Source of the DNA: Bilabrum cf. latius
Lineage: Eukaryota
Direction: 5' to 3'
NCBI GenBank assembly: GCA_965178125.1
Contig: OZ237757.1
Coordinates: 620,001 to 684,000 of the forward strand
DNA: 64,000 bases
Part shown: positions 1 to 63,480 of the stretch, one piece after another
Numbering within the stretch: the first letter of the stretch is position 1
How the letters are laid out: each line of letters begins with the position of its first letter
Made by a program: the position numbers and the translations under genes
Notes under the pieces: generated by a model
The model's input: only the letters and a program-made list of their open reading frames with translations
Databases searched by the model: none
Told to the model about the DNA's origin: nothing

Positions 1-3000
1 CCTCCCACACGACTCTGATTTCCACAGCGGACAGCACCTGCAGCGCAACAGCTGCTGGGGGCCCAGGCACTCGCATTCGCGGGATGGCTGAATGTGTCGC
101 GGCATATGGTCCATCGCCCCTGTCATTTGTTGCCAAAATCCTCACGTAGTAGCGCTGCCCTGATGTGAGACCGTCAATGTTAGTGTAGAACTGGCGCTCG
201 CTGCGCGCAGTTGAACTCGTGATCGTAATTGCTGCAGGGTCGTCCACCACCACGCTATAGTCAGACACGTTTTGATCCACGAAAGACTCGCTTAGCGACC
301 ACTATACGAGGTACTAGAATACGGGAGAACCACCATCCTACTAGGGGTACTGCCACGATAGCTTGAGCGACGTATCGGAAAGCACGTGTAGTGCGGATAC
401 CCTCGGAGCGCCAGGCGCCGTTCGCGGCAGTTCGAATCGGGGGTGGGTGAACGTGGATGGTCCGAATCCATTCAATGCATTCTTCGCAGCGACTCGAACT
501 CCGTAGGCACGTCCTGCTTCCAGCCCCCCCAGCTAAACCGTGTACAAACTGGTGGAGCCAACTGCTTCTAGCTATACTACAGCATAGTCACGAGGAAGCA
601 CGCCTGTCTGAACGACAGCAACCTCAGCGTCTGCTCCCGGACCAGTGATCGCAGAGGTGGAAATCTCTAGCGTTGGAACATCTCCAAGTTCCCCGACAAA
701 GGTGACAACCCAATCGTACCCCAACCCATTCGCGCGTCGCACAACAGACACATCAGACACGGCAGCAAGAGCTTCAAGGCGGTTCTCAAGCATATCTGAA
801 GAAGCCTCCACATCGATGAGTTCCGTGCGCTCCCCACGGAAACCTAGCTCAAAGTACCCGCCAATTGGCTTCTATCCCTGTCTCTCGGTTACAACGGAAG
901 CAACCACATTTGTTCCTGACCAGCTGGTTCCAGGTAGCGTGATCATCTCTGGCACATCTCCCACGTGTGCCGTCTCTATGAACGTGATGCGCCAGTTGAA
1001 GCCGTTCCCGGATACCCATACGGAGTAGTCGCCCTACACTGGCCCGTTCCATGTGCCAGGCTGTAGCGCAGCATTAGGATCAGCTGCCTTTGACAGGACG
1101 AACGAATCAGCACCTCCAGCACCTGCGGATCCAGGCGCTCTAGAAGCATCTGATGTCACTATGAATGTGTTGGCTGTCTCCGAGTCTGCATGGTCAAAGG
1201 CAGTCAAAAGTCGGACTGCAGTGACCCCGGGCTGAAGAGCAATTGTATCAACAGTGCTATCCAGACGCGTCACATGCACGAATCCAGTGCCATTAGTTGG
1301 GTCGATTTCCTGGCGGGCCCTGTACAGGCCAGGCAGTCTCTTCCACGACGGTGTTCTAACGACCTCAACGTTCTGCACAGAACCAGTCCTCTCCAGGATT
1401 GCTTCCAGCTGACTGGCGGTGGCATCGTGCGGGATGTCTTCAGACACCTCCGAGCCAAACTGTACTCTGAAGCTGCCCTGGATATCATTCAAGTCTGCTG
1501 TCGTGCTCACAACCTGCACTTCTTCCACTCCGGACGGGCGGGCGGTCCCAATCGCGCGCGCTATTGCCGACACAGTGATCACCTGGACTTCATAAACAGG
1601 TTCCGACGCGAAACGTTCAACCCTGTATGACTCAACTGGACTGCCACCATTGTCCGATGCCGCTGAAAACTACACTTGGAGCTGGGCTGCACTTGCAACG
1701 GATAGTTGGGGGCTCAATACTGGCCCTGGCTGGGTTGAAACGAGTACTCGAGCACTCGACTTCGCTCCAGTGCTTGCACCCCTGCTGTTAAATGCGGTCA
1801 CACGTGTGGAGTAGCCATTGCCACTCTCCAGCTGGTTGACGACCACTCGTAATGGGTTGGTCCCGCGCACCAACTCACTAGCGAACCCACGCACGTTCAT
1901 TCCGATGCAACCGGAGGTATCGACACCCATGATGCCGAGATTTCCGGCACCTCGTACAGTCTCGTGGCTTGTGTGAGCGAATTCAACCTTCCATTGGTAG
2001 CCATCGCGAGGTCCATTCTGGATCGCACGCCTGGTCACAGACGTTGCATGAATAGTCGGTAGCCTCTACAGTGCACTCCGAAGCTCTTGGGCCGAGACGT
2101 CGCCTGGCAATGGCTGCGTTCTGTGGCCCTCAAACTCAACAACAAACGTGGATGTTTCGTTAAGCAGGCCGACTGAGTCAACCACGATTGCCTGCACTTC
2201 TCGAGTGAACGAGCCGGGCACCAGATCGGCATTGCCATCTTGTACACCCCGTACTTCCACCTTGCCACCCCTGCCTAGTAGAGTGGATCCATCTACCAGC
2301 AGCAAGCCGATATTTCCGCGCGGCTCGTGCATGGTGATCGCCCATCTGTATCCGTTGGCATACGGCTTGCGCTGTACCTCGACAGCATCAACAGCTCGTC
2401 GGTACGCCCCGGTCAGCTGCTCGATTTCAAGCTGCACGTCTCTGTGGCTTGCATCCCAGCGCAAACGATCAGAAACGATTCCGCCGTACTGTATTGTCCA
2501 GTATCCACCACGTCCATTCGACGAAGCAAATGAAGTCTCAATCACCTGAATTTCCGGCAACAGCTCGATGACGCTGCTGCCATACGTGGATGTCCTAGTA
2601 CTGAACATGCTGTCGCTGTCCCACTCGACCAGATACTTGGTAATAGGTTCTCCACCATCCGTGTCAGGTTCGCTGTAGAAGACCTCGATTTCCGTACCGG
2701 TTCCAAGATTATTCGCGAATACTCCTACCGGTTGAGCAGGAACAAATCCGATTGAGGGAGTCGTCACACGCACTGACCCAGCTGGAACCATGTTGTCCGA
2801 CATGCCGCCTTCGACTGACACGGATCTGACATTAACGGTGTACGTCGAGTTTTCCTTCAATGACGTGTATCCGGGCCAAGTTCTGGCGTTCATGTTGGAT
2901 TCGATGGCAATACGGCTAACAACCTTTGGCTTCTCAGATAGCGTGGCATTGGGACTTGCCAGTGCGATCGCACAGTTCGTCTCCGTTGCCTCATAGTCTA

Positions 3001-62900: not shown

Positions 62901-63480
62901 CCTGGCCTTCCACGAGCTGCTGATGCTGCGGAGCTGGAACGTGGTGGGTCTGGAGCAGGAGGAGCCCTACGGCGAGATCGAGATCGGCAAGGGGCCCCGC
63001 TTCGACAGCTCCTGCGGGGCACTCGACGCGGGAGCGGCTGCGGCTCGTGCTGCCGCGCTGGCTCCTGCGTCTGCGTCTGCGTCTGCGGTGCGGCCCTCGG
63101 GGGGGAGCGGGGACGAGGCCCCGGCAGTCCGAGGAGCCTCCTCGTCGTCATCGTCGTCTTCTGCTGCCGCTGCATCGTCATCGTCTTCCGGTTCCTCCTC
63201 GCGCCGTCGCCGCGCCTCTGCGCCCGCTACCGAGTCCAAGTCGGATGGCGAGCAGGAGGATGAGGAGGAGGAAGGGCAAGGCGGTGGGGAGGATAAAGAC
63301 GTTGAAGCTGATGAGATGGCTTCTAGCAGGGGCCGCAGCATGCTGGGGAAGAAGCGTGCGCGCCCTGGCAAGTCAGCATCTGCGTCCGGAGGTGGAGGGT
63401 CCAGGCGTAGCCGGGGCAAGGGTAAGAAGGGTGCTTCGGGAGGAAGAGCGCCCACTCGCAGAAGTTCCAGGGTGAGGTGA
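59982..63480 (+). CDS. RAD21: Cohesin kleisin subunit Rad21/Scc1 (Rad21/Rec8 family), about 980 aa, 4 exons
   Basis: Exons 59982-60014, 60275-60365, 60526-60817, 60954-63480 (GT-AG). N-terminal MFIS*FTLTSRSQLGRVWQAGHYDKKL...[37 protein letters not shown]; C-terminal winged helix RRLAALAFHELLML...QEEPYGEIEI; candidate separase site DLEVMR near 61180. Three TAG (59994, 62125, 62617); ends TGA. Confidence 0.9.
61342..62396 (+). repeat. 116-bp internal duplication in RAD21 (61342-61457 and 62281-62396)
   Basis: Both copies encode GDGFGDDGFGGGFGDADMGGVGGGFEDDIGDGFGMGMDG and differ at three synonymous sites. Confidence 0.9.

What the first reader, a model, noticed from the sequence alone, without database searches (positions are those of the whole stretch)
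1..63480. TAG and TAA are decoupled; TGA is the only terminator observed
Seen: every giant-gene ORF-fragment end I checked and every gap I read stops at TAG, never TAA, although CAA Gln codons are used. All eight complete CDS end in TGA. Established: most UAR reassignments (ciliate table 6) change UAA and UAG together because of wobble pairing and eRF1 recognition. Inference: TAA is not a sense codon here. It is either a rare stop or nearly unused, which implies an eRF1 able to discriminate UAG from UAA. I did not read every gap of the 38-kb frame, and eight stops is a small sample.
Basis: partly seen in the sequence, partly recalled or inferred. Interest (0 to 1): 0.75.

Follow-up and report, generated by a model that had tools for sequence, protein, structure and literature searches.

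The report
Stramenopile reading TAG as glutamine
This marine-type flagellate related to Cafeteria uses the stop codon TAG as a third glutamine codon while still ending genes with TGA (mostly) and TAA (sometimes), a rare code that my literature searches did not find reported for any stramenopile, and its genome holds the matching tRNA and an altered release factor that make the mechanism testable.

Summary
Decoupling is real; 'TGA is the only terminator' is wrong. The window comes from a bicosoecid stramenopile, sister to the Cafeteria clade. The giant frame has 128 TAG, 0 TAA, 0 TGA in 12,630 codons, and eight window genes end in TGA. Genome-wide, TAG behaves like CAG/CAA in dynein alignments (Q in 15 of 25 conserved columns, Tyr 0) and is unedited in spliced RNA contigs. 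TAA was absent from 50,102 dynein codons but ends 11 of 72 domain- or motif-anchored genes (TGA 61, TAG 0), including histone H4 and eRF1 itself. One tRNA with anticodon CUA exists; none with UUA was found. A related metagenome contig has TAG where this genome has CAG, and TGA where it has TAA. This is the known table-15 code (Iotanema, some ciliates) in a new major lineage, with TGA rather than TAA dominant, different eRF1 substitutions, and a suppressor tRNA whose stems resemble tRNA-Tyr more than tRNA-Gln (unproven).

The parts
2..37971 (-). Giant exon of an fn3/filamin/PA14 repeat protein; open only if TAG is sense; 128 TAG, 0 TAA, 0 TGA in 37891-2; runs off the window to a TGA at about C23:606928
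   Evidence: Gln is the residue most enriched at its TAG sites in 13 distant homologs (2.7-fold). Exon start at 37971 inferred from an AG acceptor seen, not from RNA
39600..42761 (+). SET-domain gene, 4 TAG in the 39768-42761 frame, ends TGA; intron 39716-39815 (5' end not mapped)
43034..44039 (-). Two-exon gene (bL21-like, label recalled, no call), in-frame TAG, ends TGA; intron 43822-43931
44372..48241 (+). FG-GAP repeat protein, 3 TAG in the open frame, ends TGA (start not mapped)
48682..50778 (+). DDE_1 transposase-like gene, 5 TAG, ends TGA; about 3.5-fold depth in the unspliced run
51213..55601 (+). LCAT-family acyltransferase, 11 TAG, ends TGA; contig of spliced run X1 matches 51321-55576 with 0 other letters
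55908..56669 (-). Small ORF without Pfam match, 7 TAG, ends TGA (weakest of the eight gene calls)
57345..59445 (+). Sulfatase gene, three introns seen in RNA contigs, ends TGA (5' end approximate)
60676..63480 (+). Rad21/Rec8 C-terminal exon, 2 TAG in the open frame, ends TGA

Best explanation
The nuclear genome of this bicosoecid stramenopile uses UAG as a third glutamine codon and keeps UGA (about 85%) and UAA (about 15%) as stops (NCBI table 15). Shown from sequence: the codon assignment, both stops, a single-copy tRNA with anticodon CUA, no UUA tRNA found, one eRF1 gene with rare substitutions around the stop-reading motifs. Inferred mechanism: the CUA tRNA is charged with Gln and, having C34, pairs with UAG but not UAA; eRF1 has lost most affinity for G in the third position while still reading UAA and UGA, probably through N129S/K130H, F114I/F117P, S60V, G29A/N30D and L69Q (human numbering) rather than the T32G of Iotanema. 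TAG is a slow, low-supply codon and is avoided in highly expressed genes. TGA dominance most likely reflects the GC-rich genome (inference).
For: TAG columns in 25 dynein pieces (50,102 codons; 167 TAG, 0 TAA, 0 TGA): Q in 15 of 25 columns at >=90% conservation, Tyr 0; mean Q frequency 0.25 vs CAG 0.26, CAA 0.23 (60 of 120 homologs used, TAG masked as X). eRF1 TAG at codon 48 faces Q in 82 of 86 homologs. Giant gene: Q 0.084 at TAG vs 0.031 background, p 5e-8, not different from CAG/CAA, p 0.30. In 65 Ras matches 48 TAG, 1 TAA, 2 TGA; the TAA lies in an intron. TAA follows the H4 end LYGFGG, CC/CxC/CAAX ends of four Ras-family genes, three dynein ends and the eRF1 end. tRNA-CUA at C23:907607-907679 on the window's own contig, full cloverleaf. 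Spliced contigs of runs X1-X3 keep TAG. L165 (81.7% DNA identity) has TAG at a CAG site and TGA at the TAA site. TAG share of Gln codons: histones 0 of 16, proteasome plus CCT 7 of 169, dynein 167 of 2,345, giant gene 128 of 598. Yeast N126S (the same position and change as own N133S) is listed as readthrough-enhancing and enriched in an amber screen (PMC12440015, passages).
Against: No proteomics, ribosome profiling or charging data. 10 of 25 conserved dynein TAG columns are not Q (E 4, N 2, others), though CAG shows the same spread (108 of 369). With only TAG masked, giant-gene TAG sites showed Q at 0.08 against 0.18 and 0.14 for CAG and CAA; after masking all three the gap shrank but TAG stayed lowest. 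The second eRF1 TAG faces L in 82 of 86 homologs, Q in 4. The CUA tRNA is not a close copy of either tRNA-Gln, so its Gln identity is inferred from the alignments. N30A had no effect in yeast (PMC4381064); an N-to-S change at 129 also occurs in a few homologs of unknown code. The A33/D34 reading depends on an exon junction not checked with RNA. The tRNA inventory is incomplete (63 of 780 candidates scored).
Confidence: 0.92

Rival explanations
1. Ordinary table 6 (TAA and TAG both Gln), with TAA merely rare in a GC-rich genome.
For: Most frequent nuclear variant (PMC11687900); GC3 is high in most genes.
Against: 0 TAA in 50,102 dynein, 17,013 giant-gene and 5,824 proteasome/CCT codons although CAA is common; TAA at 11 anchored gene ends; no UUA tRNA.
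Confidence: 0.01
2. One reading: TGA is the sole stop and TAA is unassigned or nearly unused.
For: 8 of 8 window ends, the giant gene's end, 14 of 14 proteasome-family ends and 8 of 8 chaperonin ends are TGA.
Against: 11 of 72 anchored ends are TAA, among them multi-copy histone genes and eRF1; orthologous eRF1 ends swap TAA and TGA between related species.
Confidence: 0.01
3. [quoted passage not shown]
For: eRF1 keeps T32, E55, NIKS and S70 equivalents; the sample of ends is small; genes with defined ends are conserved housekeeping genes.
Against: 0 of 72 anchored ends are TAG (upper 95% bound about 4%); a TAG lies only nine codons upstream of the stop, ahead of a CAAX-type end, in L078 and must be read through.
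Confidence: 0.04
4. TAG is ambiguous or partly Tyr, because the CUA tRNA has a tRNA-Tyr-like acceptor stem with C1-G72.
For: Acceptor plus anticodon stems match tRNA-Tyr(GUA) at 20 of 24 positions, tRNA-Gln(CUG) at 12; C1-G72 is a eukaryotic Tyr identity element (PMC9976931).
Against: No TAG column has a Tyr consensus at >=90% (0 of 25) and Tyr is depleted at giant-gene TAG sites (0.61-fold); the tRNA has G73, not the A73 that TyrRS needs.
Confidence: 0.02
5. Artefact, pseudogenes or U-to-C RNA editing of TAG to CAG.
For: The assembly holds a foreign 18S contig (C95); contigs hide minority variants.
Against: TAG occurs in essential genes on many contigs without TAA/TGA or frameshifts; spliced contigs keep TAG; an independent species shares it; a cognate tRNA exists.
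Confidence: 0.01

Closest known systems
Iotanema spirale (Fornicata) nuclear code, UAG=Gln, UAA/UGA stop (PMC5304391; passages and section 9 read)
   Same: Same codon table; UAG not used as stop; single-codon reassignment; the paper predicts a CUA-anticodon tRNA.
   Different: Other supergroup; UAA is its predominant stop; its eRF1 has T32G whereas this one keeps GTS; its tRNA was not identified, and the paper expects origin from tRNA-Gln(CUG), which the tRNA here resembles poorly.
Phyllopharyngean ciliates Hartmannula sinica and Trochilia petrani, and Protocruzia tuzeti (PMC11687900; abstract, introduction and passages read)
   Same: UAG=Gln with UAA and UGA as stops; UAG a substantial share of Gln codons.
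   Different: Ciliates; UAA ends 86.9-98.3% of genes in the recoded phyllopharyngeans, here about 15%; no suppressor tRNA was detected in H. sinica or T. petrani.
Rhizarian exLh and TARA ciliate MAGs (UAG=Leu), Scotinosphaera (UAG=Ser) (PMC5304391, PMC11687900, passages)
   Same: UAG decoupled from UAA.
   Different: Different amino acid; UAA preferred (56 of 71 in exLh).
Cafeteria roenbergensis/burkhardae (PMC6972860, passages)
   Same: Nearest named relative (eRF1 69%, dynein 64% identity); mitochondrial UGA=Trp also suggested here by a UCA tRNA on C111.
   Different: A non-standard code is mentioned only for its mitochondrion, and its eRF1 N-domain motifs are canonical. Its nuclear stop usage was not tested here.

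Membership tests
Nuclear table-15 code (UAG=Gln, UAA/UGA stop) | In-frame UAG at conserved Gln positions across many genes | tested here: met
Nuclear table-15 code (UAG=Gln, UAA/UGA stop) | UAA absent in frame and used as a terminator | tested here: met
   0 in-frame TAA in about 73,000 codons; 11 of 72 ends
Nuclear table-15 code (UAG=Gln, UAA/UGA stop) | UGA used as a terminator, not sense | tested here: met
   61 of 72 ends; 0 in-frame TGA in dynein pieces; selenoproteins not examined
Nuclear table-15 code (UAG=Gln, UAA/UGA stop) | UAG no longer a terminator | tested here: met
   0 of 72 anchored ends, upper bound about 4%; a rare residual use is not excluded
Nuclear table-15 code (UAG=Gln, UAA/UGA stop) | Cognate CUA-anticodon tRNA present, UUA tRNA absent | tested here: met
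   present; no nuclear UUA tRNA; patterns miss atypical loops, introns over about 30 nt and edited anticodons
Nuclear table-15 code (UAG=Gln, UAA/UGA stop) | The CUA tRNA is charged with Gln and Gln is inserted in vivo | not testable with these tools
   needs charging assay or proteomics
Table 6 (UAR=Gln) | In-frame UAA at Gln positions and a UUA-anticodon tRNA | tested here: not met
Context-dependent codes (Condylostoma, Blastocrithidia type) | A codon serving both as sense and as stop | tested here: not met
   no codon seen in both roles in the sample; sample limited
Bicosoecida (Stramenopiles, Bigyra) | Groups with Cafeteria inside stramenopiles in protein trees | tested here: met
   dynein tree SH-aLRT 99 for own plus Cafeteria clade, 31 rows, one gene; eRF1 tree places it in a 95/90 clade with Cafeteria and Bicosoecida sp. 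CB-2014 but leaves inner order open; genus not determined
Suppressor tRNA derived from tRNA-Gln(CUG) | Close sequence match to the genome's tRNA-Gln outside the anticodon | tested here: inconclusive
   31 of 53 fixed positions to Gln(CUG), 29 to Gln(UUG), 37 to Tyr(GUA); D stem, T arm and base 73 match Gln(UUG) best, 22 of 26; the two Gln isoacceptors share only 27 of 53

The most novel reading that the evidence does not exclude
This is the first nuclear code change in stramenopiles, and it arose by a route not described before in the papers I could search: the amber-reading tRNA descends from tRNA-Tyr(GUA) by G34C and was switched to glutamine identity (A73 to G, Gln-type D arm), alongside an eRF1 that keeps T32 but is remodelled around YxCxxxF, TASNIKS and the GTS loop. 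With UAA already down to about 15% of stops it may be a half-way state towards UAR=Gln, a second bicosoecid branch (L207) may have recoded TAG independently, and such flagellates could be hosts of giant viruses that read TAG as Gln.
Probability: 0.35. Interest if true: 0.88.

Novelty: new variant of a known kind. Interest (0 to 1): 0.72.

Why it matters
UAG-only reassignments are rare, and how eRF1 can ignore UAG while reading UAA and UGA is still a set of untested hypotheses (PMC5304391). Here one well-assembled genome offers the whole kit: one eRF1, one CUA tRNA, one cytosolic GlnRS-type gene, RNA data and a close relative (Cafeteria) with canonical eRF1 motifs as control. It extends nuclear recoding to stramenopiles (no report found in my searches), breaks the pattern that UAG-only codes rely on UAA as the dominant stop, and so tests whether such codes are dead ends or steps to table 6. 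Standard-code annotation truncates this organism's proteins. A natural UAG-blind eRF1 is also of direct use for amber-based genetic code expansion in eukaryotes.

Tried and rejected
ARAGORN on the window found no tRNA. Table 6, TGA-only, Tyr, editing and artefact readings were tested and rejected as given under rivals. The E[VIR]Q repeat-motif test inside the giant gene was weak (6 of 128 TAG vs 23 of 314 CAG). The first homolog test on the giant gene was biased by masking only TAG and was redone. Pattern scans for UUA tRNAs gave only chance hits and the mitochondrial tRNA-Lys. No holder run is on record as RNA; I treat X1-X3 as RNA-derived only because they show GT..AG joints that X4 lacks. 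The GlnRS gene was located (L290) but not compared with homologs. A link to TAG-recoded giant viruses was tried and gave nothing: no NCLDV capsid match in the genome, with a control that also did not ring, and no exact match of the tRNA stretch in viral contigs. Dropped before the stop tally: 10 of 30 Ras loci (7 without prenylation motif, all ending TGA; 3 running into introns or unclear), 5 of 19 proteasome loci (internal exons or duplicate), 7 of 25 dynein loci (upstream exons), histone array copies collapsed to 9 gene types and one internal exon, 7 of 15 chaperonin loci (internal exons, one non-chaperonin, L277 unparsed). Literature searches returned no report of a nuclear code change in a stramenopile; one search returned none for a Tyr-derived Gln suppressor; subscription papers and supplements were not visible.
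Full report
OBSERVATION. The minus-strand frame 37891-2 has 12,630 codons with 128 TAG, 0 TAA and 0 TGA, while CAA (156) and CAG (314) are both used. If TAA were a Gln codon used in the CAA/CAG ratio, about 64 would be expected; P(0) is about 4e-23. The product is a real protein (fn3, filamin and PA14 domains; 13 homologs of 5,700-7,600 residues, several from oomycetes). With neighbouring stretches the stop-free frame is 17,013 codons, 162 TAG, 0 TAA, ending at TGA. 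The eight other gene ends that I parsed in the window are all TGA. The window facts therefore stand.

ORGANISM. The window is G000:C23:620001-684000 of a 48.6-Mb, 111-contig eukaryotic assembly. The best named hits for eRF1 and a dynein heavy chain are Cafeteria roenbergensis (69% and 64%). A 31-row dynein tree puts it sister to Cafeteria plus one environmental sequence (SH-aLRT 99) inside stramenopiles; an eRF1 M-C domain tree agrees at lower resolution. It is a bicosoecid; the genus was not determined. A 17.9-kb contig with a different 18S (78-83% to the C12 array) shows some foreign DNA, but the TAG pattern and the tRNA are on the large contigs, including the window's own.

TAG IS GLUTAMINE. 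In 25 dynein pieces (50,102 codons) there are 167 TAG, 0 TAA, 0 TGA. Against 60 of the 120 homologs, with TAG masked, columns conserved at 90% or more give Q for 15 of 25 TAG sites (CAG 261 of 369, CAA 24 of 35) and never Tyr; mean Q frequency is 0.25 at TAG, 0.26 at CAG, 0.23 at CAA. eRF1 has two TAG: one faces Q in 82 of 86 full-length homologs, the other faces L in 82 and Q in 4. In the giant gene, homologs are distant; with only TAG masked Q was 0.08 against 0.18 and 0.14, and with all three masked 0.084 against 0.135 and 0.110 and a background of 0.031 (TAG vs background p 5e-8; TAG vs CAR p 0.30; Q the most enriched residue, Tyr depleted). Family scans across many contigs report almost only TAG inside domains, for example 48 TAG, 1 TAA and 2 TGA in 65 Ras matches; the TAA lies in an intron. 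Contigs of runs X1-X3 skip GT..AG introns that X4 keeps, and X1 matches most of the SET gene and nearly all of the LCAT gene with no other letter, so TAG is not edited in the majority transcript; contigs cannot show rare variants. An independent metagenome contig, L165 (81.7% DNA, 92% protein identity to this eRF1), has TAG where this genome has CAG; it is the only close relative among 80 loci returned.

TAA IS A STOP. I read on from conserved domain ends to the first TAA or TGA. TAA directly follows the histone H4 end LYGFGG, the H2A array, one H3 variant, four of 20 Ras-family genes with prenylation ends, three of 18 dynein genes and eRF1 at the position where homologs end. TGA ends 16 Ras, 14 proteasome-family, 15 dynein, 6 histone types, 8 chaperonins and 2 synthetases. 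Total 11 TAA, 61 TGA, 0 TAG of 72 (TAA 15%, CI 8-26%; TAG upper bound about 4%). Proteasome, chaperonin and synthetase ends are anchored less tightly than Ras, dynein and histone ends; dropped rows are listed under Tried and rejected. L165 ends eRF1 with TGA exactly where this genome has TAA. Eight TGA in eight has P = 0.27 at this ratio.

MACHINERY. One tRNA with anticodon CUA lies at C23:907607-907679 and folds as a full cloverleaf. Three pattern scans found it, one tRNA-Tyr(GUA), one Gln(UUG) and two Gln(CUG), but no nuclear UUA tRNA with or without a short intron; the Rfam scan scored only 63 of 780 candidates, so absence is likely, not proven. A CUA anticodon reads UAG and not UAA (PMC5304391, PMC11687900). 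The eRF1 family search gave one eRF1 and one Pelota-like gene (Pelota label recalled). eRF1 keeps GTS, E55, NIKS, S70 and the YxCxxxF frame but differs from a consensus of 85% or more at G29A, N30D, S60V, L69Q, F114I, F117P, L126M, N129S and K130H (human numbering by a +4 offset that I inferred from the motifs); G29A, N30D, F117P and K130H occur in none of 86 homologs. N129 has been proposed to read G in the third position and L69A raises UAG readthrough slightly more than the others, whereas N30A had no effect (PMC4381064, passages); yeast N126S is a reported readthrough mutation enriched in an amber screen (PMC12440015, passages). Which change matters is inference, and the junction through codon 33 was not checked with RNA. 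TAG makes up 0 of 16 Gln codons in histones, 7 of 169 in proteasome and chaperonin domains, 167 of 2,345 in dyneins and 128 of 598 in the giant gene, as expected for a codon served by one tRNA gene.

ORIGIN OF THE tRNA. Its acceptor and anticodon stems match tRNA-Tyr(GUA) at 20 of 24 positions (each stem differs by one compensated pair, C1-G72 shared), above all 385 cross-isotype pairs (maximum 17), against 12 for Gln(CUG); D stem, T arm and base 73 match Gln(UUG) best (22 of 26, inside the null range). I chose these partitions after seeing the sequences, paired columns are not independent, over all fixed positions the Tyr match (37 of 53) is inside the null range (maximum 40), and tRNAs here are so divergent that the two Gln isoacceptors share only 27 of 53. 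C1-G72 and A73 are eukaryotic Tyr determinants, and G73 or a central U35 favour glutamine charging of amber suppressors in E. coli (PMC9976931, passages and sections 17 and 20). A Tyr-to-Gln identity switch is thus plausible (about 0.45) but unproven; that E. coli tyrosine amber suppressors with G73 insert Gln is recalled, not from a call.

COMPARISON. The code itself is known: Iotanema (PMC5304391; passages and section 9 read, supplements with the eRF1 alignment not read), Hartmannula, Trochilia and Protocruzia (PMC11687900; first part and passages read). All features of table 15 that can be tested from sequence are met; table 6 fails. Differences: a new major lineage (searches found no stramenopile nuclear case; passages of PMC11412368, PMC13768787, PMC10120064, PMC12153298, PMC6972860 and bioRxiv 10.64898/2026.08.26.747235 added none; the library lacks most subscription papers); TGA dominant, whereas the cases described in those two papers prefer UAA; the cognate tRNA identified, which those papers did not find for Iotanema, Hartmannula or Trochilia; T32 retained. 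Earlier scan notes describe giant viruses with the same code and unknown hosts; Cafeteria hosts a giant virus (PMC6972860, abstract), and alternative codes in giant-virus genomes are catalogued (PMC13524828, passages), but my two tests for a link gave nothing.

VERDICT. A new variant of a known rare code; interest 0.72.

Noticed in passing
L207:1-1310: An eRF1 from another bicosoecid-like branch (near Cafeteria, not sister to this genome) has two in-frame TAG where its relative L201 has Gln, ends in TGA and has a heavily altered N-domain; a second recoded lineage or an odd paralog.
   Followed up: partly
window 2-37971 (-), continuing to about G000:C23:606928: A stop-free coding stretch of 17,013 codons (about 51 kb) for an fn3/filamin/PA14 protein, over twice the length of the homologs found; at least one more exon lies upstream of 37971.
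   Followed up: partly
window 48682-50778: DDE transposase-like gene at about 3.5-fold depth in run X4 carries five in-frame TAG, so a multi-copy element is adapted to the host code.
   Followed up: no
G000:C95 (L034, L147, L148): 17.9-kb contig with an 18S only 78-83% identical to the C12 array and long simple repeats; looks alveolate/dinoflagellate-like by eye (recalled), probably foreign DNA.
   Followed up: partly
G000:C111 (L004, L019): Probable mitochondrial contig with clustered tRNAs including one with anticodon UCA, suggesting mitochondrial TGA=Trp as in Cafeteria.
   Followed up: no
L150, L154, L161-L163: Several near-identical tRNA-Met(CAU)-like copies share their body with a tRNA-Pro(UGG)-like gene and have mismatched first pairs; possible anticodon shift or tRNA-derived repeats.
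   Followed up: no
L221, L225: Two further metagenome eRF1 loci show one in-frame TAG in the M-C region (55% identity to the query); lineage not examined.
   Followed up: no
L146 (G000:C23:600201-606606, -): The next gene downstream of the giant gene is another long frame (2,135+ codons, 20 TAG, no TAA/TGA).
   Followed up: no
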